Positions 2,983-63,586 of a stretch of DNA of 64,000 nt are shown here, one piece after another. The translations under genes were made by a program, and so were the position numbers. Every line of letters starts with the position of its first letter. Positions within the stretch are counted from its first letter, which is position 1. The DNA is from an uncultured bacterium. Its GTDB lineage: Bacteria; Patescibacteriota; Minisyncoccia; UBA6257; 2-01-FULL-56-20. The notes beneath the pieces were generated by a model, which did not search any database, was not told where the DNA came from, and worked only from the letters and a program-made list of their open reading frames with translations. The DNA is taken from positions 289,521 to 353,520 of the forward strand of contig CAWDZM010000001.1 in NCBI GenBank assembly GCA_963807165.1, in the 5' to 3' direction.

Positions 2983-4132
2983 CTATAAGATCACGCCGCC
3001 GCCGAACATTTCACCATCCGCACCATAAAATACTGCCGACTGACCCTCAGCCACAAATTTTTGTGGGGTAGCGAACACGAGTTTGTAATTCCCATTCCTT
3101 GATTTTGAAAGCGATGCCTCTGAAAGTGGCTGGCGATAGCGCACGCGAGCGCGCACGGAAAACCACCCACTATCTACCGATATACTATTTGTCGGAGTTC
3201 CATCGGAAATAAAATTTATCTGTGTCAGCTCAACTTCCGTGCGATAGAGTGCCGGATCATCACTCCCTTCCGCAAGTACCACGGTGTTCGTCATCGCATC
3301 CTTCGATGCCACATACAATGGTTTGCGCGCCGCGCCGGCGACGCCGGTCTTCGGAAACGCAAAATCGGCATCAATGTGCCGCTGGCCGATGGTATAGAAT
3401 TCAGTTCCCGAATGCTCACCGATTTTCTCACCCGCGGTCGTCATCAACGCGCCGCGATGTTCCGGAATATATTCTTTAAGAAAATCATCAAGCGAAAATT
3501 TTCCGAGAAAACAGATGCCCTGCGAATCTTTTTTCTCCGCTGTTGGCAATCCGGCGCGGCGCGCGATCGCGCGCACCTCCGGCTTTACCATTCCGCCAAT
3601 CGGGAACAAACAACGCGCGAGCTGCTTTTGACCGAGCGTCCATAAAAAGTATGACTGATCTTTGTTAGTATCAACGGCCTCGTACAATTTATAAATCACA
3701 TTTTGTGATTTATGCGGAGCCTGCAGTTTGGCTTCCGAAGCTTCCGCCGTTAGCCTCACGTAGTGCCCCGTCGCCACATAGTCCGCACCGCTCGCGAGCG
3801 CCTTCTCCAAGAACAACCCAAACTTGATCTCGCGATTGCACATCACGTCCGGATTCGGCGTGATCCCGGCGCGATAGCCCTCTATCATATATTGCACCAC
3901 ACGATCTTTATATTCCTGCCTCGAAATCCCACACATAGAACGGGATGCCGATATGTTCCGCCACGCGACGCGCGTCTTCTGCGTCGGTCTCGGCGCAGCC
4001 GTCGATGTTGTAACACTTCATGAAAACACCCACGACCTCGTAGCCTTGTTCGTTTAATAAATACGCCGCGACGGAGCTGTCCACCCCGCCCGACATGCCG
4101 ACGAAGACGGCCTTTTTTGAGATACTTGACAT
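2983..4132 (-). pseudogene. mnmA: tRNA-specific 2-thiouridylase MnmA, split by a frameshift near 3908-3936
   Basis: The N-terminal ORF (4132..3908) has the PP-loop MSGGVDSSV. The C-terminal ORF (3936..2983) continues in another frame with the conserved GITPNPDVMCNREIKFG and MnmA-like downstream regions, and the two frames overlap. The cause could be an authentic frameshift or a sequencing indel. Confidence 0.7.
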
Positions 4133-4585
4133 TTCTATAATATAAAGTATAATACTCTCAGAACCACTTGGAGGACTTCTATGATTACCACCATGAAATG
4201 GATGGCCGGCGCTTGCGCAGGCTGTGCTGTCTACTTTGCATTCAACCATCTAGCGATACCGACTGCTCTTTGTACCGCTAGCGCAGTAGTAAACGCCCTT
4301 AGCAGCATCAACTTTAGCAATAAATAATAATACCTATTTATTGCCCCCCGGCGCAGCACACTCGTGTTGCGCCGCTTTCTTTATTTTATACCTTTATATG
4401 AGCGGGCGTAACTCGCGTCCTGCGCTGTTTCGAAAACCTTGTTGCCGCAAGGAAATTGCAGCGTTCGAAGCGAGTAGAAATTTTTCCGGGCACCCGCGAG
4501 TCCGCGAGCTGGGTGGAAAAATTTCGTTATGAGCGAGAACGATGCCCGAGCGGCAACCGGTTTGAGGGACAGCGCAGGATGCGAG

Positions 4586-5149
4586 CTACACCCGTTCCAC
4601 GTAATCCCCCGTCTGCGTGTTCACGCGGATCATGTCGCCTTCGTTCACGAAGAGCGGCGCAGAGATCTTTGCGCCTCCCTCGATCGTCACCACCTTGCTA
4701 CCACCCTGCGCGGTATTACCTTTGAGCGCCGGCGGGGCTTCCACTACTTTGAACTCCATCTTGACTGGGATTTCGATCGTGATCACTTTGTCCTCGAAGA
4801 TCATCGTCTGCACGCGGGTGTTCGGCTTCAAAAACCTCGCCTGCTCACCGGCAACTTCAGCATCGAGCGCAAAACGATCCTTTGGATTATTTTCCGTATG
4901 GAACCAATATTGCCCCTTCGCTTCATAAATAAAAATCGCGTGCTTGCGCTCGATCTCCGCCTCTTCGAACGAATCGCTCGCCTGGAAGTTGCGATCCAAA
5001 AGCTTGCCCGTGATGAGATTGCGGATGCGCGTCTGCACGACTGCCTTGCGTTGCTGCATGCGCAAAAAATGCGTCTCGAGCACCTCGTACGGCGCGCCAT
5101 CCATGATGAATAGAACTCCCTTGGTTAAGTCGGTATATGCAAGTGCCAT
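4586..5149 (-). CDS. efp: Elongation factor P
   Basis: Starting at MALAYTDLTKGV, the ORF shows three-domain EF-P-like sequence (KPGKGQAF-like region, C-terminal OB folds). Confidence 0.85.
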   Translation of the reverse strand: MALAYTDLTKGVLFIMDGAPYEVLETHFLRMQQRKAVVQTRIRNLITGKLLDRNFQASDSFEEAEIERKHAIFIYEAKGQYWFHTENNPKDRFALDAEVAGEQARFLKPNTRVQTMIFEDKVITIEIPVKMEFKVVEAPPALKGNTAQGGSKVVTIEGGAKISAPLFVNEGDMIRVNTQTGDYVERV

Positions 5150-7726: not shown

Positions 7727-7757
7727 CGCTTGAAATTATTACTAGGTTCTCTATAAT
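7727..7757 (+). promoter_or_regulatory. Sigma70-like promoter (TTGAAA-N16-TATAAT) upstream of tRNA-Ala
   Basis: TTGAAA at 7727, a 16-nt spacer, then TATAAT at 7752-7757, about 35 nt before the tRNA. Confidence 0.45.
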
Positions 7758-7791
7758 CAGTGAGCAAAGACGGTCGCCGGTCGATCGCATT

Positions 7792-7862
7792 GGGCCCATA
7801 GTAAAGTGGTATTACGCGGCATTCGCATTGCTGAGGCGGGAGTCCGATTCTCCCTGGGTCCA
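7792..7862 (+). tRNA. tRNA-Ala (anticodon CGC)
   Basis: Folded by hand as a cloverleaf: acceptor GGGCCCA/TGGGTCC with the G3:U70 alanine identity pair, anticodon loop TTCGCAT, T-loop GAGTCCGATTCTC. CCA is not encoded. Confidence 0.8.
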
Positions 7863-7881
7863 CTAACCAGTAACTATAGAA

Positions 7882-8226
7882 ATGAGTAATAATTTTGGAA
7901 AATCAATTGAGGAACTAACAGAGCGAGAATTAGTGGACAGCGTCAATGCTGCTAATCCTGCCTATGGACAGGTTGCAATGGGTGAGCTGACAAGGCGTAG
8001 TATGAATCGATTAAGAGAGTCGATTGACGGTCTTAATAAATCAACAGGTATTTATTCGAAAGTTATTATCGTATTAACAGTACTTCTCGTAATTCTTGCC
8101 GTTGAACAAGAACTAATTATTATCTTTCCTCCACACGGACTTTGGATTCTGATATATATCCTCCCTTTAATTGTGCTAGCCCTAATTGCAATATGGATGG
8201 CAAATAGGTCTCTTGATGTGAAATAA
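7882..8226 (+). CDS. Hypothetical small membrane protein
   Basis: 114 aa, with a C-terminal hydrophobic stretch. Confidence 0.4.
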   Translation: MSNNFGKSIEELTERELVDSVNAANPAYGQVAMGELTRRSMNRLRESIDGLNKSTGIYSKVIIVLTVLLVILAVEQELIIIFPPHGLWILIYILPLIVLALIAIWMANRSLDVK

Positions 8227-14081: not shown

Positions 14082-14328
14082 AACCCCTTCACTGCCTTTG
14101 TGATGTTCTTCGCTTCTGAGGTGCTTTACGGCTTTGTCTGGTTATTACTCACAGTTCTTGGATCTGTTTTCCAGTTCTATTTTTGAAACAATTCCGCATG
14201 GGTCTGCATACCGAATATTCGGCGAAAGCGCCGGGAACCAATCCGTCGGTTGCACAATATCCTTTTACGATTGATATGTGCAGGGTTAGAGAAGTAAAAA
14301 TAGAATGGATGACTTTTTCCGCGCGCTG

Positions 14329-14402
14329 TGCCCCCACCTGGATTTGAACCAGGGACCATCTCCTTAAAAGGGAGCTGCTCTACCAGACTGAGCTATAGGG
14401 GC
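14329..14402 (-). tRNA. tRNA-Lys (anticodon TTT)
   Basis: Reverse complement GCCCCTATAGCTCAGTCTGGTAGAGCAGCTCCCTTTTAAGGAG...GGTTCAAATCC...GGGGGCA forms a canonical cloverleaf with anticodon loop CTTTTAA. Confidence 0.85.
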
Positions 14403-23889: not shown

Positions 23890-25254
23890 ATGGCGATCAG
23901 CAAAAAATCACAACTCAAGCTTCCACCCCAGAACCTTGAGGCGGAACAGGCAGTACTTGGCTCCATCCTTATCGACAAGAATGCGATCTTCCGCGTGGCG
24001 GATATTTTGTTGCCTGAAGATTTTTACACACCGTCGCACGAGCGGATCTATAAAGCCATCCTCTCGTTGTACGAAAAACATCAGCCGATTGATGTGCTCA
24101 GCCTGACGAACTTCCTTAAAGAACACGAATGGCTGAAGGATGTCGGCGGCTCGGCATATCTTGCGGACCTTACGAATCACGTGTCGAGTGCATCGCACGT
24201 GCAGCACTATGCCACGAACGTAAAGGAGAAGAAGATCTTGCGCGACCTGATCCGCGCGTCGGCGGAGATCGCAGAAAATGTTTTTTCGAATGGCGGCGAA
24301 GTGGAAGATCTGCTCGACGACGTCGAACAGAAGATCCTTTCGATCTCACAAAAATCCTTGCCGCAAAACTTTACGTCGCTTAAAGATGATCTGACAACCG
24401 CGTACGAGCGCATCGCAAACCTCCATGCCGGTGGCGGAAAGTTGCGCGGCGTGCCAACCGGCTTCCCCGCGCTCGACGAATGCCTCTCCGGACTCCATAA
24501 ATCAGAGCTCGTGATCCTCGGCGCACGGCCGTCCGTTGGAAAAACGTCGTTCGCACTCGACATCGCGCGCAATGCCGGCAAGGCAGGATTCAGCGTCGGA
24601 TTATTCTCGCTCGAAATGTCGCGCGAATCGTTGCAAGACCGCATCATCTCCGCCGAGTCGCAGGTGCCGCTCTGGAACATCCTCACCGGCCGCATTCGCA
24701 ACGACAGCGAGTTCTCTATGATCCAGGAAGCGCTCGATCGCCTTTCCGCGGTAAAGATTTATATCGACGACTCGCCGTCGCTCAACGTGCTCCAGATGCG
24801 CTCCATGGCGCGACGCTTGCAAGTTGAACACGGCCTCGACCTACTCGTCGTGGACTACCTCCAGCTCATTCGCCCGCGCACGAACAGTGACAATATGGTG
24901 AATATGATTACCGAGATTTCGCGCGGACTCAAATCGCTCGCGCGCGAACTTAAAGTGCCGGTGCTCGCGCTCTCACAGCTTTCGCGCGGACTTGAACAGC
25001 GCGATCACAAAATCCCCCGCCTCTCCGACCTCCGCGACTCCGGCTCCATCGAGCAGGACGCAGACGTCGTCATGTTCCTCTACCGTGATGAGCGCAACCC
25101 GAACGATACCGCCTCCGCGGGCGACAACACCGTCCACCTCCGCGTCGCCAAGCACCGCAACGGCGCACTCAAAGACATGGACTTCTTCTTCAACGGCGAA
25201 CTCGCGAGCTTCAAGGCGATAGAGAAGAGATACGAAGAACTGCCGGCGTTATGA
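23890..25254 (+). CDS. dnaB: Replicative DNA helicase DnaB
   Basis: N-terminal DnaB domain, Walker A GARPSVGKTSFALD, Walker B LLVVDYLQL and the RecA-like C-domain. Confidence 0.9.
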   Translation: MAISKKSQLKLPPQNLEAEQAVLGSILIDKNAIFRVADILLPEDFYTPSHERIYKAILSLYEKHQPIDVLSLTNFLKEHEWLKDVGGSAYLADLTNHVSSASHVQHYATNVKEKKILRDLIRASAEIAENVFSNGGEVEDLLDDVEQKILSISQKSLPQNFTSLKDDLTTAYERIANLHAGGGKLRGVPTGFPALDECLSGLHKSELVILGARPSVGKTSFALDIARNAGKAGFSVGLFSLEMSRESLQDRIISAESQVPLWNILTGRIRNDSEFSMIQEALDRLSAVKIYIDDSPSLNVLQMRSMARRLQVEHGLDLLVVDYLQLIRPRTNSDNMVNMITEISRGLKSLARELKVPVLALSQLSRGLEQRDHKIPRLSDLRDSGSIEQDADVVMFLYRDERNPNDTASAGDNTVHLRVAKHRNGALKDMDFFFNGELASFKAIEKRYEELPAL

Positions 25255-25370
25255 GGCGCACGAATATGTCCTTCGGGGACGGGTCGCGTTCTGCTGAACG
25301 CGCCCTAACGCTCGCCGCCTACGCGGCTCCGCGATTCCCCTCAGGACATATTCGTGCGCCTCATAACGCC
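25245..25370. repeat. Copy A of the structured hairpin repeat family: perfect 27-bp basal stem enclosing a conserved two-hairpin core
   Basis: GGCGTTATGAGGCGCACGAATATGTCC ... GGACATATTCGTGCGCCTCATAACGCC is a perfect inverted repeat. The core aligns with the copies at 28.6, 52.7 and 62.8 kb. The dnaB stop codon lies inside the stem. Confidence 0.7.
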
Positions 25371-25399
25371 ATCGCTTTTTGTAATATTCCTCCATCGCG

Positions 25400-26041
25400 A
25401 TGAAATACGAGATTAGTATTCGGATCAATTTTCCGGAAGAGATCACGGGAGTACTTCGCGAAGAAAAGCAGCGCTTCATTAGCCAATATGGCAGTAGTTA
25501 TAAGTCGGAGCCGCACATCACTTTATATCTCGACAGCTACACTGCTGATGGGTATCCAAAATTATTGGAGGGTCTTCGAAATCTCCATATAAAACCATTT
25601 ACGATTTCTCTTCTCGAGCCACAGATGAGAATTGAAAACGATCGCCATCGCAATCTTTACATAATGGAAATTTCCAATGAAGATGCTCTGCGCGAATTGC
25701 AACATAAGATATCAATACTTGCCATTCCATATCGAAGTCCGTTTATTAGAGAAAAAACTCAAAAGGAACTGAAGCGGCTGGGCATTGATTCTGATGGCGT
25801 ACGTAAAAATCTAGAAAAGCTTCACGTCCCCGAAGATGCATTTGACCCCCATATCACGCTCGGTGAGATCGATTTTGATAAGCCACAGGCTGATATTACT
25901 GAATCGCGCGCAAATCTCAAATCAATGGAAGGTCGGGAAATAATCGTTTCAGACGTCACTGTTTTTTGGTATGGGAAAGAAGACGGCGACGAAAAAGCGC
26001 ATTTGATCGGAGAGGTCGCAATCCCCTTCAATCAAAACTAA
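25400..26041 (+). CDS. 2H phosphoesterase superfamily protein (LigT / 2',3'-cyclic phosphodiesterase-like)
   Basis: Two H-x-T-x motifs (PHITLY and PHITLG) about 100 aa apart, which is typical of the 2H fold. Confidence 0.6.
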   Translation: MKYEISIRINFPEEITGVLREEKQRFISQYGSSYKSEPHITLYLDSYTADGYPKLLEGLRNLHIKPFTISLLEPQMRIENDRHRNLYIMEISNEDALRELQHKISILAIPYRSPFIREKTQKELKRLGIDSDGVRKNLEKLHVPEDAFDPHITLGEIDFDKPQADITESRANLKSMEGREIIVSDVTVFWYGKEDGDEKAHLIGEVAIPFNQN

Positions 26042-26070
26042 AATCGCGGTATCATAAGAGTAATCATTCC

Positions 26071-26601
26071 ATGAAAACAATTTTTATCTACGGAGCACCC
26101 GCCGCAGGAAAACTGACGGTTGCCAATGAACTCGCAAAGCTTACCGGGTTTAGCGTGCTGCATAATCATCTTATCAACGATCTCATACAATCCGTCGAAG
26201 AGATTGGAACCCCTGAATTTTGGGCTATCGCCCGAGAATATCGTTTGGACCTTATGGAACGCGCGGCAAAAGCCAAGCGCAAAGGAATTATCCTTACCTG
26301 GATTTATGGAAAGCCAAACGATGATGCCGCGTTAAAAAAGATTGTTTTGCAAGCGAAGAAACATAATGGAAAAATTCTATTCGTGCATCTTGTCCCCGAA
26401 CGCGAGGAACTTTTTAAACGCATAAAAGGCCCATCAAGGAAAGCGTTCAGAAAGGTTAAGACTGCGAAAATGCTGCGCGTTATCATGGGGCGACGCGATA
26501 TCTTTTCCGACGTTCCTTATAAGCCTAATTTCGTTATCGACAATACCAAAGTTTCGCCTCGTAAAACAGCAAAGCTCATTCAGGAACATTATCGATTGTA
26601 A
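26071..26601 (+). CDS. P-loop NTPase/kinase (AAA_33 / polynucleotide-kinase-like small kinase)
   Basis: MKTIFIYGAPAAGKLTV Walker A at the N-terminus in a small 176-aa protein. The start was taken at 26071, not at the upstream in-frame extension. Confidence 0.55.
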   Translation: MKTIFIYGAPAAGKLTVANELAKLTGFSVLHNHLINDLIQSVEEIGTPEFWAIAREYRLDLMERAAKAKRKGIILTWIYGKPNDDAALKKIVLQAKKHNGKILFVHLVPEREELFKRIKGPSRKAFRKVKTAKMLRVIMGRRDIFSDVPYKPNFVIDNTKVSPRKTAKLIQEHYRL

Positions 26602-26606
26602 AAATC

Positions 26607-27032
26607 TTATTGCCCCTCTTTCTGATCTTTCTTTAGATCTCTTCCTAGCGCGGCAATTTTATCTTCAACAGCATAGCCCATCCCCTTATTGTCGGTTATG
26701 AGATCCTGCATCTCTTGTGCCGTGCCATATAATTTCTCCAGAGCATCACTAAGACTTCTAATGAGATCTAAATCGGCTTCCTCAAAAGGCTTTGCGACCT
26801 CTGCATTCACAAGATTTTCTTTTTCTTCTATAGAGCTATAGATCTCTTCTAAGAACACAGCAGCGCTCTCACTCACTCGATCGATTTCTTGTCGTAATTG
26901 CTCTAATTCTCTCTTTGCAGATTCTTTCGTATGCGTGAACGCCTTTTCTCTTTCAGCCAATTCTTTTTTCCAACGCTCAAACATTGTCTTTCGATCCTCC
27001 GAATTCTCGTTTGAAGACTTTAGTTGTTCCAT
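26607..27032 (-). CDS. Hypothetical coiled-coil protein
   Basis: 141 aa, E/K/L-rich with heptad-like repeats. Confidence 0.4.
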   Translation of the reverse strand: MEQLKSSNENSEDRKTMFERWKKELAEREKAFTHTKESAKRELEQLRQEIDRVSESAAVFLEEIYSSIEEKENLVNAEVAKPFEEADLDLIRSLSDALEKLYGTAQEMQDLITDNKGMGYAVEDKIAALGRDLKKDQKEGQ

Positions 27033-27122
27033 GTGTCTACTATATCACATGGAATAATTTGCTTGAATAGCGCCTCAAACCACTACTGGTTCATCAAGCC
27101 ACGGACGGGTATAATAGTGGAT

Positions 27123-27730
27123 ATGATGAAACTTCCCGACCCGGTGCAGAAGGTGGTGGATGAGCTTGCGGAACTCCCCTCCATCGGGCCGCGACAGGCG
27201 GTGCGCCTTGCGTTCTATCTGATCGGACGGCCAAAGGAGGACCTGCGCGTGCTTGCACAAAGCATTGACGCGCTCCGCTCGATCAAGATCTGCGAGCGAT
27301 GTTTCTTTATTCATCAGAACGCAGGGCACGCTGTGCGACGTCTGCGCGAACCCCGCGCGGAACCAGCGCATCATCATGGTGGTGGAAAAAGAGACCGACT
27401 ATCTTTCGCTTGAGAACACCAAAAAGTTCACGGGGCGATATTTTATCATCGGCCCGGTGCCGAAGACGGGATTCCTTGAAGCATGGCAAAAGACGCGCCT
27501 GCAAAGTTTGAAGGCATACATCACGACCTCGCTCGGCGGCGCGGCGGATGAGATCATCCTCGGGTTCAGCCCCACCACGCTAGGCGATTTCCAGGCATGG
27601 CTTATTATTGAAAGAGCTCGCGCCGCTCACCAAGCGGATCAGCCGCCTCGGGCGCGGACTGCCCACCGGCGGCGAGATCGAGTTCGCGGACGACGAAACG
27701 CTCGGCTCGGCCCTTGACCGACGGAATTAA
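27123..27730 (+). pseudogene. recR: Recombination protein RecR disrupted by two +1 frameshifts (near 27315-27330 and 27595-27612)
   Basis: Frame 0 carries the HhH N-terminus and the first CxxC (CERC). Frame +1 carries the second CxxC and the Toprim domain (GTLCDVCANPARNQRIIMVVEKETD...GRYFIIG). Frame +2 carries the conserved C-terminus (ELAPLTKRISRLGRGLPTGGEIEFADDETLGSALDRRN). Confidence 0.75.
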
Positions 27731-27903: not shown

Positions 27904-28548
27904 TTATTTCTTCTTCCACTCCACGATCTTCCCCGCTTCGATCTCACTCTTATCCGCACGACGCAACGTTCTCTCGTCGCCCTTTTTTAAAATGTGAAAA
28001 TGCTTTGAGAAGTCGAGGGCCTCGGCGATAGCAGCAAGATCACCGCGCGCCGTGATCCATTCATCGCCATGTTTTGCACCGTAGCTCAAAAGATCGAACG
28101 GCGCGGAATAACTGCGCATCGTCTTTACGCCACTGTCCAAAAAATATTCATTAAAGTACGACATCGCGAGCTCGCGCGGATCACGATAGATCGCGTCGCG
28201 GTAGCGTAACACGGCGTGGTTCGTCTTGCTCACCGCGCCCCAGCGATTCCCCTCTTTGAAGAGCGCAACGACATGATCGGCGTCGGCGTCAGTGGTTTTG
28301 AGGTCGAACAAGAATGGATGATATCCGGCGTGCCACAGCGCGGCGGCGGCAAGGAGGGCCCCTTCCATACAATGCGCCTTTCCCGTCCGCAAGACCATAA
28401 GCGGCGACGCATACGTATGCCGCCGCCCGGGGAAATTGATCTCCAGGCTATTCAAAAAATCCTGAATCGTACCCGGCGTTCGCAATTTTTTAAATATCGA
28501 AAACTCATCGGGGAATTCTTTGAGCATCGATTTCGGAAACTGCCTCAT
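27904..28548 (-). CDS. Hypothetical protein with a transglutaminase/papain-like Cys-His-Asp core
   Basis: KAHCMEGALLAAAALWHAGY followed downstream by H and D residues. Fold assignment is tentative. Confidence 0.4.
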   Translation of the reverse strand: MRQFPKSMLKEFPDEFSIFKKLRTPGTIQDFLNSLEINFPGRRHTYASPLMVLRTGKAHCMEGALLAAAALWHAGYHPFLFDLKTTDADADHVVALFKEGNRWGAVSKTNHAVLRYRDAIYRDPRELAMSYFNEYFLDSGVKTMRSYSAPFDLLSYGAKHGDEWITARGDLAAIAEALDFSKHFHILKKGDERTLRRADKSEIEAGKIVEWKKK

Positions 28549-28566
28549 TATCTAAATTGTACCACT

Positions 28567-28702
28567 CGCCACGGATAACATAGCAGGCACACATACTTTT
28601 GAGAACATCTCGGAAGCGCGTAGGCGCTGAGAGTAAGCGCGCGACCAGCAGGTCGCGACGCGGTTCTCAAACGTATGTGTGCCTGCTATGTTATCCGTGG
28701 CG
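28567..28702. repeat. Copy D of the structured hairpin repeat family: perfect 29-bp basal stem with a conserved core
   Basis: CGCCACGGATAACATAGCAGGCACACATA ... TATGTGTGCCTGCTATGTTATCCGTGGCG is a perfect inverted repeat. The core GCGC-GTAG-GCGC / CGCGCGACC-AGCA-GGTCGCGAC aligns with the other copies. The last codons and stop of ychF lie in the stem. Confidence 0.7.
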
Positions 28703-35067: not shown

Positions 35068-35109
35068 TTCCCCACCATACCAAAACGGTGTATAAAGAAA
35101 AGATAAAGA

Positions 35110-35191
35110 CGCAATAAGACAAGCCCCTCCTTTTTCACCGTTGATTATTATTACTAGGTGAAAAAGGAGGGGCTTGTCTTATTGCGTCGCC
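35110..35191. terminator. Long perfect hairpin (32-bp stem, 17-nt loop) at the 3' end of the FAD-oxidase gene
   Basis: GACGCAATAAGACAAGCCCCTCCTTTTTCACC / GGTGAAAAAGGAGGGGCTTGTCTTATTGCGTC is a perfect inverted repeat. The stop codon at 35179 lies in the stem. Confidence 0.5.
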
Positions 35192-49737: not shown

Positions 49738-51156
<1,419 letters not shown>

Positions 51157-51552
51157 CTATGGCGCGTGCAAACGCTGTATCGCCTCAATCTTTTCTACGC
51201 GATGACCAAGAGCAACTATCGCTTCTTTATCCGCCTTTCTGCGCAAATCCCCCGCGAGGCCGTCGAATTTTTTATCTAACTTATCGAGCTTTCCATCCAC
51301 CTTGATGAGTTTTCCTTTAAGCCCAACAAGATGTTCTTCTGTTAACATTGATTTTACCTCTAGGCGCATAACTTTATCCTCGAGTTGGCTAAATCTTCCC
51401 GATAACGCATCAATACTTTCATTGGTGCCAGTCTGCCCCTCTATGATAAGATCCATTTTATCATTTAGCACCTCAGACATCATTCCATCGGAAAACGACG
51501 TCTTCTGCTTCTTTTTGTTCGATATTTTTTTATTTTCCATAACTCCAATCAT
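51157..51552 (-). CDS. Hypothetical coiled-coil protein
   Basis: 131 aa with heptad repeats. Confidence 0.4.
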   Translation of the reverse strand: MIGVMENKKISNKKKQKTSFSDGMMSEVLNDKMDLIIEGQTGTNESIDALSGRFSQLEDKVMRLEVKSMLTEEHLVGLKGKLIKVDGKLDKLDKKFDGLAGDLRRKADKEAIVALGHRVEKIEAIQRLHAP

Positions 51553-51699
51553 AGAAGTTTATTATAGCATTGCAAATAATTTTTCATAAACATTTAATGT
51601 TTTACAGAACCGCATTTCGATCATTAAAAATTGATGAAAAACTTTTTGACTAAAATTTTTCACGCACTAAAATGAGAGATTTTAAAAGTTATTCAGATC

Positions 51700-52260
51700 T
51701 TTCACGCTGGAAATAATGGCCGAACAATCCCCGTGGTATGGGATAAGACATCTCCCCGTGGCTAGTAGGGTGATTCCAAAAGCCTGACGCCGGCGGCTGA
51801 AACGCCGCCGTCTAAGCCAACGAGCAAGTGCTCGAGGCATGAGGAGAGAGTACGAGGCGCAACTCCTACACGATTAACAATTGAAGGGGTAGTACCCCGC
51901 GCATAGCTCCGGGTAAGGCCGAGGGTTCTATTCGGCTACACATACGCCCGCGTTGTGCGGAATAAAACAAGAGCGCTAGACGCGACGAGGAGACAGTAGT
52001 TTTACTACGACTCCGAGGAGCAACGACACGCTCTTGTTTTATAACCACAACCCGAAGGGATCTTAGAAAAATACCATAAGCCTGCGTTACTCCTCCTTGG
52101 AGTGATAAAATCACACCATCGTCGCCGCGCCTTGGCTTGCGGTCTTTTTCTAAGATCGCGGGCGTATGTGTAGCCGAATAGAACCCCACCCAGTCATTCC
52201 GGTTGTTTCCAGCGTGAAGGGTCGGAATAATTTTTATGATAAAAAAATGAACCTTGCTCA
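51700..52260. other. Large structured non-coding region with nested perfect inverted repeats; the segment 51924-52185 is a MITE-like or ncRNA-like element with 29-bp terminal inverted repeats
   Basis: GGTTCTATTCGGCTACACATACGCCCGCG (51924-51952) and its exact reverse complement (52157-52185) flank 204 bp that contain a further 12-bp inverted repeat (AAAACAAGAGCG/CGCTCTTGTTTT) and several GC hairpins. No convincing ORF is present; the track ORF 51866..52261 has no SD and has odd composition. Confidence 0.45.
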
Positions 52261-52296
52261 AGGGTTCTACTTTTTACACGCAAAAGCGTGTAAGCA

Positions 52297-52569
52297 TTAT
52301 GACCACCAGTCGCCTTCATTTCTGATTGGACCGGAATCGCATTCCAGGCCTCCATGTGCAACATATTGCATCAGGAGGTAGTTGGCTGCGGAGATTGGCC
52401 ACATAAAGAGACTGATGAGGATCCAGAGCGGCATCGCAACGCGCGGGCTGAATCCGTTGTTGGGATTGTAAGGTTCGCCACGACGGATTACGAACTCTCG
52501 AACCCATAGACAGGCCATAAGTAACGCCGGACCTACCCATAGGATAAAAAACCATACCCATTCCTTCAT
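52297..52569 (-). CDS. Hypothetical small membrane protein (two TM helices)
   Basis: 90 aa, W-rich and hydrophobic. Confidence 0.45.
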   Translation of the reverse strand: MKEWVWFFILWVGPALLMACLWVREFVIRRGEPYNPNNGFSPRVAMPLWILISLFMWPISAANYLLMQYVAHGGLECDSGPIRNEGDWWS

Positions 52570-52711
52570 GATTCCTCCTCGCTGACTGACAAGCGGCGTA
52601 GATATTGAACTATCGAAATGAAGCCGCTGACTGCATTATAACATATCAATATATCTTGTCAAATTCATGCGTTTTTACCGCCTCACGCATATCGCTGCAG
52701 TAGCAAAGGCC

Positions 52712-52811
52712 CTCAGGATTGTCTTTGAGGGGAATCGCGGAGGCACGGAGGTGCCGAGCGTTAGGGCGCGGCTAGTAAGCCGCGACCCGTCCCCGAAAAG
52801 ATGATCCTGAG
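52712..52811. repeat. Copy B of the structured hairpin repeat family: imperfect basal stem with a conserved core
   Basis: Core GGAATCGCGGAG-GCAC-GGAG-GTGC-CGAGCGTTAGGGCGCG-GCT-AGTA-AGC-CGCGACCCGTCCCC, flanked by CTCAGGAT...ATCCTGAG. It ends 8 nt before the atpG stop. Confidence 0.7.
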
Positions 52812-52819
52812 AGCTTTTG

Positions 52820-53755
52820 CTATTGCAGCGACTCTGCGCCACTTGTGATCTCGATGATCTGCCCCGTGATGGCGGCTTGACGGGACTTATTATAGACCAT
52901 CGTAAGCGTCTCCGAAAGGTCGGATGCATTATCGGAAGCGTTCTTCATCGCTACGCGCCGCGCGGAATGTTCGGAAGCATTTGCCTCGAGGATAGCGTGG
53001 TAGAGACGGATCTTTAATAATTTTGGCGCAAGCTCGTCGAGCACTTCCTTCGGCGACGGCTCGATGATATATTCTTTTACCTTGCCGTCCAAAAACGTCT
53101 CCGACTTTGCGTAGTCCGCGTAGCGGCCTGCGCGCGGGATCGTCTCCTCAATGGACTGCTTAATGGTATCGTAGCTTACCGGCAAAAAATCACGGACAAC
53201 GGGGTCTTGCCGGAGCGCGGTGACGAATGTGGTAAAGAATGCGATGACGCTGTCGAAGTCGCGGCGCGCGTATCCGTCGATCAAGAAATCCGCAATTGGC
53301 TCGGCGTCGAGAATATTACTCGCATCGCCAACGCGAGTGAACGATGCAACGACGTTCGCTTTGCGCCGCTCAAGATAGCTCTTCGCTTTTTGTCCGACGG
53401 CGATGAATGAATAGCGCGAGTCAAGGATGTCGATATTATTCGCCTTCATATATTTTTCGAACTCGCGGGTGACGGCGCCATTGAACGAACCAGCGAGGCC
53501 GCGATCGGACATCATAAGAAGGAACGCGGTGTGCTCCACCGTGCGCTTCTCAAAGATCGCAGGCACCGGCACATCCTTGAGCGACGACAAAATGCCGAGC
53601 AATTCAAGCGCAGCGTACGCGTATGGGCGCGAGGTGAGCGCGAGCTCCTGGCTCTTGCGCATCTTCGTGGCGGATACGAGCTCCATCGCCTTCGTGATCT
53701 GCCCGATATTCTGGACGCTCTTCATGCGTCGCTTGAGGCTCTGTCCGGATTCCAT
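52820..53755 (-). CDS. atpG: ATP synthase gamma subunit
   Basis: 311 aa, with N- and C-terminal coiled-coil helices typical of gamma. Confidence 0.9.
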   Translation of the reverse strand: MESGQSLKRRMKSVQNIGQITKAMELVSATKMRKSQELALTSRPYAYAALELLGILSSLKDVPVPAIFEKRTVEHTAFLLMMSDRGLAGSFNGAVTREFEKYMKANNIDILDSRYSFIAVGQKAKSYLERRKANVVASFTRVGDASNILDAEPIADFLIDGYARRDFDSVIAFFTTFVTALRQDPVVRDFLPVSYDTIKQSIEETIPRAGRYADYAKSETFLDGKVKEYIIEPSPKEVLDELAPKLLKIRLYHAILEANASEHSARRVAMKNASDNASDLSETLTMVYNKSRQAAITGQIIEITSGAESLQ

Positions 53756-61912: not shown

Positions 61913-62014
61913 ATCCGCGACACGCGAGCGGCATCGCTATCTCAAGAAAATATAGCGAAAAAATGAGGATTGCGCAATAAGAAGTAGACCTTATAAAAAT
62001 TTACATATGCAAAG

Positions 62015-62101
62015 CGGTGAGGGTGGGATTTGAACCCACGGTACCCTTTCAGGTACACCGCATTTCGAGTGCGGCGCCTTCGACCACTCAGCCACCTCAC
62101 C
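62015..62101 (-). tRNA. tRNA-Ser (anticodon CGA), type II with a long variable arm
   Basis: Reverse complement GGTGAGGTGGCTGAGTGGTCGAAGGCGCCGCACTCGAAATGCGG-TGTACCTGAAAGGGTACCG-TGGGTTCAAATCCCACCCTCACCG, with anticodon loop CTCGAAA. Confidence 0.8.
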
Positions 62102-62214
62102 GCTTTGCATGTGTGTCACTCTATGGTTACAGAAATGCGACGCTATTTCAAGTATTAAAACGAAGGAAAGCGCTGTCTCCGAAGAAACAGCGCTTTTTGA
62201 GGTGAACGAGGAAA

Positions 62215-62559: not shown

Positions 62560-62728
62560 CTTCCATTACCATACCACTCCTGTAAAAAAAGAAAAGTCTT
62601 TGTGCCCTCGGGGAGAATCGCCCGCGACTCAAATGCTCGTCGCCGCTCGCATTTGGTCTGGGCACCGCCTCACAAGATTTTTCTGCTGAAAAATCTTGCT
62701 CCGGCGTTCGATTCTCACATCAATAATA

Positions 62729-62844
62729 CCGTGAGGAGAGGCACACTCTTTTGAAAGTATTTCGGAGCCGCGAAGGCGGCGAGAATAAGTGCGCGGCCAG
62801 TAGGCCGCGACACGTCTTTCAAAAGAGCGTACCTCTCCTCACGG
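62729..62844. repeat. Copy C of the structured hairpin repeat family: 29-bp basal stem with a conserved core, abutting the 3' end of tRNA-Arg
   Basis: CCGTGAGGAGAGGCACACTCTTTTGAAAG ... CTTTCAAAAGAGCGTACCTCTCCTCACGG form a 29-bp inverted repeat with two adjacent mismatches (CA opposite AC near the middle). The core CGGAG-CCGC-GAAG-GCGG-CGAGAATAAGTGCGCG-GCC-AGTA-GGC-CGCGAC shows compensatory changes relative to the other copies. Confidence 0.7.
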
Positions 62845-62916
62845 TGCCCTCGGGGAGAATCGAACTCTCATTTTATCCTTAGGACGGATTTGTTCTATCC
62901 ATTGAACTACGAGGGC
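62845..62916 (-). tRNA. tRNA-Arg (anticodon CCT), candidate with two stem mismatches
   Basis: Reverse complement GCCCTCGTAGTTCAATGGATAGAACAAATCCGTCCTAAGGATAAATGAGAGTTCGATTCTCCCCGAGGGCA. Anticodon loop GTCCTAA. There are A27:A43 and A50:C64 mismatches. Its 3' 19 nt recur as a direct repeat at 62602-62620. Confidence 0.5.
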
Positions 62917-63109: not shown

Positions 63110-63586
63110 TTGGTGATTGAGCAATATAAAAGAAATCCAAATACCGTTTGTATTGTTTGTAAAAAAGCTATCTATCGAAGACCGATAGAGATGCGAAGGA
63201 ACAAGGGGAATGTTTTTTGTGGCGCTATGTGCTACGGGATTTTTTGTAGAAAAGAATTCCCTTGTATAATCTGTGGAAAGCCGATATTATCAGGCCTGAA
63301 CAGAAAGACTTGCAGCAGAGTCTGCGCAAATAAAAATAGGGTGGGCATCAAATATAAAAGCGGCGGCCTAAAGGATCGAGTGATATCGCAACGAGCTCTC
63401 AAAATAAGATTGCTGAAAATCAGAGGTGAAAAATGTGAACGTTGCGACTATAATAAAATTGAGATACTACAGACTCATCACAAGGACAGAAATAGAAATA
63501 ATAATTCATTAAAAAATCTGGCATTGATTTGCCCGAACTGCCACTTCGAAGAACACTACCTAGAGAAAAGTTGGCTGAGAAGATAA
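63110..63586 (+). CDS. HNH endonuclease with an N-terminal Cys-rich zinc-binding region, lying between tRNA genes
   Basis: C-terminal HNH motif CERCDY...LQTHHKDRNRNNNSLKNLALICPNCHFEEH. The N-terminal region has seven Cys residues (CIVCKK...FCGAMC...FCRKEFPCIIC). Confidence 0.7.
   Translation: MVIEQYKRNPNTVCIVCKKAIYRRPIEMRRNKGNVFCGAMCYGIFCRKEFPCIICGKPILSGLNRKTCSRVCANKNRVGIKYKSGGLKDRVISQRALKIRLLKIRGEKCERCDYNKIEILQTHHKDRNRNNNSLKNLALICPNCHFEEHYLEKSWLRR

What the first reader, a model, noticed from the sequence alone, without database searches (positions are those of the whole stretch)
25245..25370. Family of four hairpin elements with unique basal stems and a conserved, covarying two-hairpin core, each at the 3' end of a gene
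Four copies were found: A 25245-25370, D 28567-28702, B 52712-52811 and C 62729-62844. Each has a long basal stem whose sequence is unrelated between copies and which is perfect or near-perfect within three of them (27, 29 and 29 bp, the last with two adjacent mismatches in C); copy B has an imperfect stem. The enclosed core of about 55 nt is conserved: CGGAG-[hairpin 1]-CGAG-nnTAAGn-GCGCG-[hairpin 2]-CGCGAC. Both internal hairpins change by compensatory substitutions. Hairpin 1 is CCGC-GTAG-GCGG in A, GCAC-GGAG-GTGC in B, CCGC-GAAG-GCGG in C and GCGC-GTAG-GCGC in D. Hairpin 2 is CGCGGCT-AGTA-AGCCGCG in B, CGCGGCC-AGTA-GGCCGCG in C, CGCGTTC-AGCA-GAACGCG in A and CGCGACC-AGCA-GGTCGCG in D. That pattern is the signature of selection on RNA or ssDNA structure, not of transposase-recognised inverted repeats, where the ends are conserved and the interior varies. 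All four abut the 3' end of a gene (dnaB, ychF, atpG, tRNA-Arg), with the stop codon inside or within 10 nt of the stem. All are in the same orientation relative to that upstream gene, even though the genes lie on different strands. A/B and C/D also differ at a mismatch within the stem (GA opposite TC), so the family has subtypes. I do not recognise this as any named repeat, riboswitch or ribozyme class. Candidate functions include a 3' UTR processing or termination module, a substrate for a dsRNA/ssDNA enzyme, or a structured small mobile element that targets gene ends.
Basis: seen in the sequence. Interest (0 to 1): 0.75.

Follow-up and report, generated by a model that had tools for sequence, protein, structure and literature searches.

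The report
Conserved-cap hairpins with locally copied stems
Tiny-genome Paceibacterota (CPR) bacteria carry a family of intergenic DNA hairpins in which a conserved folded cap of about 75 nt sits on a long, near-perfect stem that differs at every site because one arm is an inverted copy of the neighbouring DNA, and no described repeat, RNA family or recombination site matches it.

Summary
Four copies (A 25245-25370, D 28567-28702, B 52692-52831, C 62728-62845) share a three-way-junction core whose helices covary. Each core sits on a stem of unrelated sequence.

A scan of public genomes and metagenomes found about 25 more copies, all named ones in Paceibacterota/Minisyncoccia MAGs, and all with the same build. 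There is no Rfam match and no viral hit.

The stems look like DNA palindromes rather than RNA helices kept by selection:
- 664 of 698 stem positions are Watson-Crick, and G.T equals A.C (7 each).
- Substitutions, indels and even synonymous changes in the last codons of dnaB are mirrored in the far arm.
- Relatives lacking D or B keep the same gene ends, so the far arm is an inverted copy of the gene end.
- A tRNA-Lys gene in two relatives is enclosed the same way.

Stems run from the upstream stop codon towards, and at D and two related loci right up to, the next gene's -10 box. None is followed by a U-tract. The shared orientation seen in the window is only a roughly 3:1 bias family-wide.

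Best reading: this is a REP-like gene-end hairpin element. The cap is the inherited, occasionally mobile part. Hairpin-templated DNA synthesis makes the stems and keeps them matched. The cap's partner and the way it spreads are unknown.

The parts
25245..25370 (-). Copy A, whole hairpin (core read as CGGAG... on the minus strand). It lies between dnaB and a LigT-like gene.
   Evidence: Inverted repeat I2. The fold gives -95 to -101 kcal/mol with z of -13. The covariance model scores 91 bits. Orthologs sit at the same site in L020, L021 and L023, a truncated copy in L030, and the site is empty in L024-L027 and L029; in L028 a plain perfect hairpin occupies the dnaB-recR gap instead.
25245..25271 (+). 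A, gene-side unique arm. It includes the last two dnaB codons and the stop (GCG TTA TGA; stop at 25252-25254).
   Evidence: The same codons occur in L027, which has no element, so this arm is the original sequence.
25272..25343 (-). A, conserved cap. It comprises the inner helix with a tandem G.A, P2 (3 bp + GGA/GA loop + 5-bp hairpin 1 with a GNAG loop), a junction, and P3 (3 bp + bulged A + 7-bp hairpin 2 with an AGYA loop).
25344..25370 (+). A, far arm. It is an exact inverted copy of 25245-25271.
   Evidence: 27 of 27 positions are complementary. In L021 the far arm matches that genome's different synonymous dnaB codons.
28567..28702 (+). Copy D, whole hairpin, with 40-nt arms (28567-28606 / 28663-28702) and one mismatch. 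The ychF stop (28691-28693) and the codons for R-H-G lie in the right arm.
   Evidence: There is no model match at the ychF 3' end in L020, L021, L023, L024, L026 or L027. The ychF ends printed for five of them (L020, L021, L023, L026, L027) keep the same YchF C-terminus (my translation of those sequences), so 28567-28579 is an inverted copy of the gene end. An ortholog with a different stem is present in L029.
28556..28564 (-). Extended -10 box (TGGTACAAT) of the next gene (27904-28548). It lies 2 nt beyond D's far arm and 7 nt before the ATG.
   Evidence: Read. The same motif abuts the elements in L025 and L028.
52692..52831 (+). Copy B, whole hairpin with a decayed 42-position stem. The cap is at 52717-52806 and the atpG stop (52820-52822) lies in the right arm.
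   Evidence: In relatives L031 and L032, atpG and atpD are 2 nt apart. B is therefore the first part of a 1.69-kb lineage-specific insertion, and its far arm (52692-52703) is an inverted copy of the last atpG codons.
52635..52662 (-). A 12/12 sigma-70 promoter (TTGACA, 16 nt, TATAAT, with TG) just downstream of B. It drives the inserted 90-aa ORF.
62728..62845 (+). Copy C, whole hairpin, with 30-nt arms and two transition mismatches. The right arm overlaps the ACC end of tRNA-Arg(cct), which lies at 62843-62916(-).
   Evidence: An ortholog sits next to what reads as the same tRNA-Arg gene in L026 (1394-1507; the tRNA was recognised by eye from its similarity to the window's, not run through a tRNA finder). 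Its cap is conserved and its stem sequence is unrelated, yet 27 of 28 positions pair.

Best explanation
This is a lineage-specific (Paceibacterota/Minisyncoccia) family of REP-like intergenic hairpin elements with two parts of different origin.

(1) The cap is the inherited unit, about 75 nt long. It has a short inner helix, usually with a tandem G.A, and a three-way junction carrying two GC-rich hairpins. Its unpaired bases are invariant: the GGA/GA loop, the GNAG and AGYA loops, a bulged A, and a junction GT. The cap is kept at the same sites over long divergence, is gained or lost between close relatives, and is sometimes patched from other copies. Some partner therefore recognises it, most probably a protein, and it can reach new sites.

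(2) The long outer stem is not inherited with the cap. It is made on the spot. The cap folds in single-stranded DNA, and a nascent 3' end then copies its own strand (a quasipalindrome-type template switch). One flank is thereby rewritten as the inverted complement of the other. The same process keeps the arms identical while their sequence drifts. The palindrome grows until it meets constrained sequence: the last codons and stop of the upstream gene (or a tRNA 3' end) on one side and, where this could be read (D, L025, L028), the -10 box of the next gene on the other.

The finished hairpin then serves as the 3'-end hairpin of the upstream transcription unit, as an insulator, terminator or 3'-end protection or processing site.

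What is shown: the architecture, the DNA-level copying, the gain and loss, and the boundaries at the window copies and several related loci. What is inferred: the template-switch chemistry, the 3'-end function, and the existence of a cap-binding partner.
For: Architecture and covariation.

Same build in every copy from other genomes and metagenomes, with unrelated stems of 11 to about 50 bp.

Stems are Watson-Crick only, with no wobble excess (664 WC, 7 G.T, 7 A.C), and so are the core helices (458 WC, 2 G.T).

Arms evolve in concert:
- Arm-to-arm identity within a copy (22-27 of 27, 31/31, 34/34) exceeds identity between orthologs (16-17 of 28, 26 of 34).
- Five substitutions between L015 and L016, and two 2-nt indels between L021 and L023, are mirrored.
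- The dnaB codons GCC CTC TGA in L021 are matched by its far arm.

Far arms hold inverted copies of conserved gene ends. The ychF end is unchanged in relatives without D. atpG and atpD are adjacent in L031 and L032, yet window B's far arm copies TCG CTG CAA TAG. The tRNA-Arg 3' end is copied in C and in L026.

The process is generic. tRNA-Lys in L020 and L023 is enclosed by an 8-bp acceptor extension plus a 20-bp perfect repeat. L024 and the window keep the same trailer without a complementary leader. Window tRNA-Ser has a 12-bp extension. The internal hairpins of one copy are themselves expanded (L029 7510-7639).

Template switching that 'universally perfects' and extends inverted repeats is established (PMC6357072, PMC3820800).

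Gene-end role: stems start in or at the stop codon. At D, L025 and L028 they end at an extended -10 box, and B is followed about 30 nt later by a 12/12 promoter. Where the atp operon is split by an insertion, a hairpin appears after atpG and a new promoter appears before atpD.

Gain, loss and relics.
Against: - No transcript data exist, so the 3'-end function is inferred from position only.
- None of the copies read out here is followed by a U-tract, and the terminator scan does not score the window copies it covered (A, D, B).
- Some copies lie between divergent genes, where no transcript should end (L005; upstream of corA in L025, L028 and L029).
- The strand with the purine-rich loops and the tandem G.A is antisense to the abutting gene at about 13 of 17 sites. 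This is awkward if the cap acts in the mRNA.
- Only about 3 of roughly 30 tRNA genes show palindromised flanks, so the process is not indiscriminate.
- How the cap reaches new sites is unknown. No transposase, reverse transcriptase or HUH enzyme was found among the window ORFs scanned, and no autonomous partner was seen.
- A clean filled-versus-empty pair with identical flanks on both sides was not obtained. It is therefore unresolved whether the stem is made at insertion or grows afterwards.
Confidence: 0.5

Rival explanations
1. RNA-level module. The whole hairpin is a selected feature of the upstream transcript: a long double-stranded RNA stem cut by RNase III or bound by a factor, with the cap as a protein-binding or excised small RNA. 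On this view the stems are kept paired by selection on the RNA, as in the processing stems around rRNA.
For: - The elements sit at gene and tRNA 3' ends, and promoters follow them.
- Orientation is biased about 3:1 relative to the abutting gene.
- The cap is conserved at orthologous sites while the stems turn over.
- tRNAs are enclosed by similar stems.
- An RNase III gene is present in a relative (L025).
Against: - Wobble pairs are almost absent and G.T equals A.C, so neither strand's RNA is favoured.
- Indels and blocks of changes are mirrored exactly. Selection on pairing does not produce this quickly.
- In the usual orientation the transcript carries the pyrimidine-rich complement, with a U.C/C.U tandem mismatch instead of G.A.
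- Some copies lie in divergent promoter regions.
Confidence: 0.2
2. Loop-targeting mobile cap. These genomes already end their genes with long perfect hairpins. On this view the cap is a miniature transposable element that inserts into the apical loop or centre of such palindromes. The GA...GA around GGGG...CCCC would be a 2-bp target duplication.
For: - Plain long perfect hairpins at gene and tRNA ends exist in the same genomes: window 35108-35188, L005 3309-3348, L008 473-511, L016 1359-1454 and L028 near 4890.
- Several unrelated cap families occur on such stems.
- The cap is present or absent between close relatives.
- The cap ends are GA-GGGG...CCCC-GA in many copies.
Against: - Relatives lacking D or B have no hairpin at all at those gene ends.
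- tRNA genes, which are not insertions, are enclosed by the same kind of perfect repeat, and orthologs show that one flank was rewritten.
- This view does not explain how the plain hairpins themselves come to contain inverted copies of coding ends, nor why the arms stay identical.
Confidence: 0.15
3. Folded single-strand recombination site, in the manner of integron attC or CTX-phage attP. A recombinase would recognise the hairpin, which would mark the places where foreign gene islets are integrated.
For: - The hairpins have unique stems at ORF 3' ends, with the stop codon in the stem, and an orientation bias.
- A sits at the edge of the variable dnaB-recR islet, and B sits at the edge of a 1.69-kb insertion that splits atpG and atpD.
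Against: - The conserved part is apical, not basal, and there are no R'/R'' type core sites.
- There are no arrays and no integrase or recombinase nearby in the window.
- Most copies flank housekeeping genes in conserved synteny (tuf, recA, rplL, tRNAs).
- Islets also occur without the element (L027, L024).
Confidence: 0.08
4. Assembly or amplification artefact: inverted chimeras produced by strand-displacing polymerases or by assemblers.
For: Palindromic junctions are a known artefact class (own knowledge).
Against: - The same sites carry the element in independent assemblies from JGI, ENA, NCBI and Logan, with diverged sequence and partly decayed arms.
- Arms begin and end at functional boundaries.
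- The cap is conserved across genera.
Confidence: 0.02

Closest known systems
REP / BIME / REPIN elements of proteobacteria (mobilised by RAYT transposases)
   Same: Both are short, structured, multi-copy intergenic palindromes placed mostly after genes. REP elements are thought to be both selfish and co-opted as mRNA 3'-end stabilisers or terminators, and they are lineage-specific.
   Different: In REP elements the paired sequence itself is conserved within a genome. Here only the apex is conserved and the 20-50 bp stem is unique per site. No RAYT gene was seen. The cap is a three-way junction, not a simple imperfect hairpin.
Bacterial MITEs with folding potential (Correia/NEMIS, RUP, ERIC, RPE)
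   Same: Both are non-autonomous and present or absent between close relatives. Both have a short terminal inverted repeat (here GGGG...CCCC) with a possible 2-bp flanking duplicate, and both can provide hairpins at gene ends.
   Different: MITE ends are conserved and their flanks are ordinary DNA. Here the flanks are converted into inverted copies of each other. No parent IS is known.
Integron attC sites
   Same: Both are hairpins of unique sequence at the 3' end of ORFs, often overlapping the stop codon. Both have conserved structural asymmetries (bulged bases) and an orientation bias.
   Different: In attC the conserved boxes are at the base, and the apex is the variable part. attC sites occur in cassette arrays next to an integrase. 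The arms of attC are imperfect and do not copy the neighbouring gene.
Quasipalindrome template-switch mutagenesis (Ripley model; Lovett and Jinks-Robertson laboratories)
   Same: In both, one arm of an inverted repeat templates the other, which perfects and extends the palindrome (PMC6357072, PMC3820800). This is the only known process that mirrors substitutions and indels between arms.
   Different: It is known as a mutational hotspot phenomenon of a few bases in laboratory reporters. It is not known as a genome-wide builder of 20-50 bp palindromes around a dedicated conserved module or around tRNA genes.
Mitochondrial palindromic mobile elements (yeast GC clusters, double-hairpin elements of Allomyces and other mtDNAs)
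   Same: Both are small, GC-rich, two-hairpin modules dispersed in the intergenic DNA of a small genome, with no enzyme of their own known (one search lists papers; details are from own knowledge).
   Different: The mitochondrial elements occur in a different domain of life and have no reported unique perfect basal stems copied from flanks. No sequence relation was tested.
Intrinsic (Rho-independent) terminators
   Same: Both are hairpins immediately after the stop codon or tRNA end and are followed by the next promoter.
   Different: The stems here are three to five times longer. They carry a 56-73 nt structured apex and have no U-tract.

Membership tests
REP/REPIN | The palindromic sequence, stem included, is conserved among copies in one genome | tested here: not met
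   The outer stems of A, B, C and D and of four copies in MAG JARLIC01 are unrelated.
REP/REPIN | A RAYT (IS200/IS605-type TnpA) gene is present in the genome | tested here: inconclusive
   No such domain was found in the roughly 40 window ORFs scanned. The rest of the genome is not available.
MITE | Conserved terminal inverted repeats at the element ends | tested here: inconclusive
   The inner helix GGGG...CCCC (or variants of it) is conserved. It could be a terminal inverted repeat if the unique stems are counted as flank.
MITE | A direct target-site duplication, shown by filled and empty sites | tested here: inconclusive
   GA...GA flanks many caps. The empty sites found (L027, L031/L032 and others) differ in downstream content, so the insertion boundaries cannot be read.
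MITE | A related autonomous IS with the same ends | tested here: inconclusive
   No cap-flanked gene was seen in about 480 kb of held sequence. The rve gene next to L028 is cut by the contig end. Collections could not be searched further.
Integron attC | Conserved R''/R' core sites at the base of the hairpin | tested here: not met
   The bases of the stems are unique sequence.
Integron attC | Cassette array next to an intI integrase | tested here: not met
   The neighbours are dnaB, ychF, atpG and tRNA-Arg, the copies are solitary, and no integrase is present in the window.
Intrinsic terminator | A GC-rich hairpin followed at once by a U-tract | tested here: not met
   No T-run follows within 2 nt of any stem. 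The scan lists none of the three copies it covered, A, D and B; C was judged from its sequence only.
Any Rfam 15 family | A match at or near the gathering score | tested here: not met
   The window yields tRNAs only. Copy A gives only weak generic long-hairpin (miRNA precursor) hits of 32 bits against a 168-bit cut-off. Relatives yield tRNA and rRNA only.
Quasipalindrome template-switch product | Differences between arms are resolved by copying, so substitutions and indels appear on both arms | tested here: met
   supported by the wobble census.
Quasipalindrome template-switch product | Direct observation of the switch (mutation assays, dependence on exonucleases) | not testable with these tools
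   This needs experiments, or at least whole-genome gene inventories for xonA, xseAB, sbcCD and recJ.
CRISPR / TIGR-type guide arrays | Tandem arrays of repeat-spacer units next to an effector gene | tested here: not met
   The copies are solitary and 3-34 kb apart, and the unique parts derive from local sequence.

The most novel reading that the evidence does not exclude
The cap would be a dedicated 'palindrome seed': a small mobile DNA module whose fold makes the replication machinery rewrite its flanks into long perfect inverted repeats. These reduced genomes would thereby manufacture their own gene-end hairpins, by a process that also acts on tRNA genes. This would be a new class of repeat in which the element's ends are created from host sequence, as an inverted rather than a direct target duplication. 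It would also be a natural, genome-wide case of template-switch mutagenesis shaping gene boundaries.
Probability: 0.35. Interest if true: 0.8.

Novelty: new variant of a known kind. Interest (0 to 1): 0.65.

Why it matters
Nearly nothing is known about how CPR/Patescibacteria end their transcripts or organise their very short intergenic regions.

This family offers three things. First, it is a concrete, searchable element (covariance model R1) that marks gene boundaries in Paceibacterota. Second, it shows that 'compensatory' changes can be produced by DNA copying rather than by selection on RNA, which matters for anyone using covariation to call structured RNAs in such genomes. Third, it is a natural system in which hairpin-templated DNA synthesis appears to build and maintain 20-50 bp palindromes, including ones that overwrite the last codons of essential genes and the leaders of tRNAs.

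If the cap has a protein partner, that protein is an unknown player in termination, RNA processing or DNA transposition in a major uncultivated lineage.

Tried and rejected
- Rfam at gathering and at permissive thresholds gave nothing: the window, copy A, the composite hairpin at 51923-52186, and nine related loci.
- A viral contig scan for the core gave no hit.
- I tested the idea that every tRNA acceptor stem is extended. Only 1 of 23 has an immediate extension, and two further cases with a spacer turned up later. The process is real but selective.
- I asked whether replication direction explains orientation. Local GC skew is confounded by gene strand, and neither rule is perfect. A follows its gene, not the skew, while the corA-upstream copies do the reverse.
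- I tested whether the hairpins are canonical terminators. They lack a U-tract.
- I tried reading a small ORF or a Shine-Dalgarno sequence in the cap (GGAGG...GTG). It works only in copies with the GGCAC hairpin 1, so I dropped it.
- I considered hammerhead, K-turn, group II domain V/VI and 5S-like readings of the junction. The required loop sizes or motifs are not present. These were judged by eye only and not formally tested.
- TIGR/CRISPR came up in a literature search. I rejected it because there are no arrays.
- Pfam, PHROG and NCBIfam scans of ORFs next to the copies looked for a transposase, reverse transcriptase or HUH enzyme. They found only a stand-alone HNH endonuclease near C.
- Literature searches for CPR palindromes or hairpin repeats returned nothing relevant.
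- I did not obtain a filled/empty pair with identical flanks on both sides. The regions next to A and D are variable islets in all relatives fetched.
Full report
OBSERVATION. A degenerate core pattern matches exactly four times (25283-25331 on the minus strand; 28611-28659, 52738-52786 and 62763-62811 on the plus strand), against none in 100 shuffles. A covariance model built later finds no fifth copy in the window. Each copy folds into a long basal stem carrying a three-way junction, with z-scores between -8 and -14.5 on either strand.

The cap has these parts:
- an inner helix of about 9 bp, which in A and B contains a tandem G.A mismatch and in C and D is fully paired;
- arm P2, made of 3 bp, a GGA/GA internal loop, and a 5-bp hairpin with a GNAG loop;
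- a short junction;
- arm P3, made of 3 bp, a bulged A, and a 7-bp hairpin with an AGYA loop.

Three small corrections apply. B has a decayed 42-position stem (52692-52831). The two mismatches in C are 3 nt apart. The innermost stem belongs to the conserved part. The gene ends are as stated: the dnaB, ychF and atpG stops lie inside the stems, and the tRNA-Arg 3' end overlaps the stem of C.

THE FAMILY OUTSIDE THE WINDOW. A loosened core pattern was scanned against one genome per species (185,579 species). It hit 8 loci in four assemblies, three named Paceibacterota or Minisyncoccia and one labelled only 'uncultured bacterium'. It also hit 11 metagenome contigs and no viral contig. DnaB and AtpG homologs of the window are likewise named Paceibacterota, so the window comes from this CPR lineage.

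Every copy has the same build: a conserved cap on a long stem whose sequence is unique. On 20 copies, 97% of core cells are paired and 16 of 22 pairs change on both sides. No shuffle out of 500 reaches the observed values, and sliding the partners collapses the signal. Rfam has nothing comparable.

THE STEMS ARE DNA PALINDROMES. Over 26 copies the stems contain 664 Watson-Crick pairs, 15 G.A (the conserved tandem), 7 G.T, 7 A.C and 5 other pairs. The core helices contain 458 Watson-Crick pairs and only 2 G.T. By my general knowledge of curated RNA families (not measured here), a helix held together by selection on an RNA normally carries several per cent wobble pairs, and they are favoured on the functional strand. 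Here wobble is nearly absent and symmetric between strands.

Orthologous copies show that the two arms evolve in concert.
- L015 and L016 differ at five stem positions, and both are perfect.
- L023 differs from L021 by two 2-nt indels present in both arms.
- In L021 the last dnaB codons are GCC CTC TGA instead of GCG TTA TGA, and the far arm matches the changed codons.
- Arm-to-arm identity within a copy always exceeds identity between orthologs.

The far arm is a copy of the gene side, not the reverse. Relatives without D keep the same YchF end, R-H-G-stop. Relatives L031 and L032 have atpG and atpD 2 nt apart, while in the window B's far arm contains the inverted last three atpG codons and the stop. 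The far arms of C and of its L026 ortholog copy the tRNA-Arg 3' end.

THE PROCESS IS GENERIC. The same genomes carry other long perfect hairpins with unique stems:
- some are plain (window 35108-35188, with the stop codon of the upstream gene inside the stem);
- some carry other conserved caps, in at least two more families;
- one cap is flipped between orthologous hairpins in L023 and L024.

Most tellingly, tRNA-Lys in L020 and L023 is enclosed by an 8-bp extension of its acceptor stem plus a 20-bp perfect repeat. The orthologs in L024 and in the window have the same trailer but an unrelated leader. The leader was therefore rewritten as an inverted copy of the trailer across a folded gene that is certainly not an insertion. 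Window tRNA-Ser has a 12-bp extension of the same kind. In one copy the internal hairpins of the cap are themselves expanded, and in another an extra hairpin sits in the junction.

CONTEXT. Stems begin 3-13 nt inside the upstream gene or tRNA. At D, L025 and L028 they stop at the next gene's extended -10 box, TGGTACAAT, only 7-12 nt from the ATG. B is followed by a perfect sigma-70 promoter about 30 nt beyond its far arm. No stem read out here is followed by a U-tract.

Gain and loss between relatives are as follows.
- A is present in relatives with 94, 91 and 89% DnaB identity. It is truncated in one at 87%. It is absent in the closest relative (95%) and in several others.
- D is absent in six relatives and present in one.
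- B belongs to a 1.69-kb insertion that splits atpG from atpD.
- Degenerate relics without stems also exist.

Orientation is a bias, not a rule. The CGGAG strand is antisense to the abutting gene at about 13 sites and sense at about 4 (p of about 0.05). A few copies lie between divergent genes. GC skew does not explain the orientation any better.

MECHANISM. The only established process that transfers substitutions and indels from one arm of an inverted repeat to the other, and that lengthens the repeat, is intrastrand template switching at quasipalindromes (PMC6357072, PMC3820800). I therefore read the cap as the inherited module and the stem as its locally made product.

The cap's invariant asymmetric features survive a process that perfects everything pairable. 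They must therefore be under selection, either for recognition by an unknown partner or for spread. The position between stop codon and promoter points the same way. So does the appearance of a hairpin and a new promoter exactly where an operon was split. Both suggest that the finished hairpin works as the 3'-end hairpin of the upstream unit. This last step is an inference.

LIMITS. There are no transcript data, no complete genome and no clean filled/empty pair. The route by which the cap reaches new sites, and the acting strand, remain open (notebook, 'unexplained').

Noticed in passing
window 35108-35188: A 32-bp perfect hairpin with a 17-nt AT-rich loop and no cap. The stop codon (35179-35181) of the FAD-oxidase gene lies inside the stem. 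This looks like a plain version of the same phenomenon.
   Followed up: partly
window 51133-52819: The atp operon is split. About 1.69 kb lies between atpG and atpD, which are 2 nt apart in relatives L031 and L032. The insertion holds copy B, a 90-aa ORF behind a 12/12 promoter, a nested hairpin, a 131-aa ORF, and a new TGCTACAAT promoter for atpD. The ORFs have no family match.
   Followed up: partly
window 51923-52186: A composite Y-shaped structure: a 30-bp perfect outer stem enclosing two further long hairpins (51962-52042 and 52059-52157). The fold has z = -13 and there is no Rfam match.
   Followed up: partly
window 62003-62114 and 7733-7895: The acceptor stem of tRNA-Ser(cga) is prolonged by 12 bp of leader-trailer pairing. 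tRNA-Ala(cgc) is flanked by a 21-nt inverted repeat that is 81% complementary.
   Followed up: partly
L020 1186-1330, L023 656-801 (versus L024 1101-1173 and window 14328-14402): tRNA-Lys is enclosed by an 8-bp acceptor extension plus a 20-bp perfect repeat in two relatives only. The trailer is shared by all four, and the complementary leader is new.
   Followed up: yes
L002 1952-2032, L002 2990-3070, L019 3560-3638; L016 3175-3243, L023 526-600, L023 8466-8532, L024 8507-8567: There are two further families of unique-stem hairpins with their own conserved small caps (loop AAATGCCACGTAGGAACGTGA; loop GAACGGTC.ATC..GGGA closed by CGCC/GGCG). The cap is inverted between the orthologous corA 3' hairpins of L023 and L024.
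   Followed up: partly
window 4400-4597: A degenerate 39-nt inverted repeat (79% complementary) enclosing 120 nt lies right after the efp stop. It fills a 336-nt gap that is only 30 nt long in relative L026.
   Followed up: no
window 25255-27250 and syntenic loci L020-L030: dnaB-recR is a variable islet. The two genes overlap or are adjacent in L025, L026 and L029. Elsewhere they are separated by different small genes (LigT-like, AAA_18 kinase, acetyltransferase, unknown ORFs), with or without copy A.
   Followed up: partly
window 2983-4249: mnmA (tRNA 2-thiouridine synthase) is split into two overlapping ORFs, 3908-4249 and 2983-3936, which match consecutive parts of the same Pfam profile. 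This is either a frameshift or a sequencing error.
   Followed up: partly
window 63110-63586: A stand-alone phage-type HNH endonuclease ORF lies between tRNA-Ala(ggc) and tRNA-Ser(tga), about 265 nt from copy C.
   Followed up: no
window 28546-28564, 51133-51160; L025 about 7680, L028 about 1140: Extended -10 boxes (TGnTACAAT) lie only 7-12 nt before start codons with no Shine-Dalgarno sequence between them. This suggests largely leaderless mRNAs in this lineage.
   Followed up: no
L020 11338-11427 versus window 25263-25352 and L021 3950-4039: The tip of hairpin 2 (3 bp plus loop) is replaced as a block in L020, while the rest of the cap is identical. This suggests patch conversion from another copy.
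   Followed up: no
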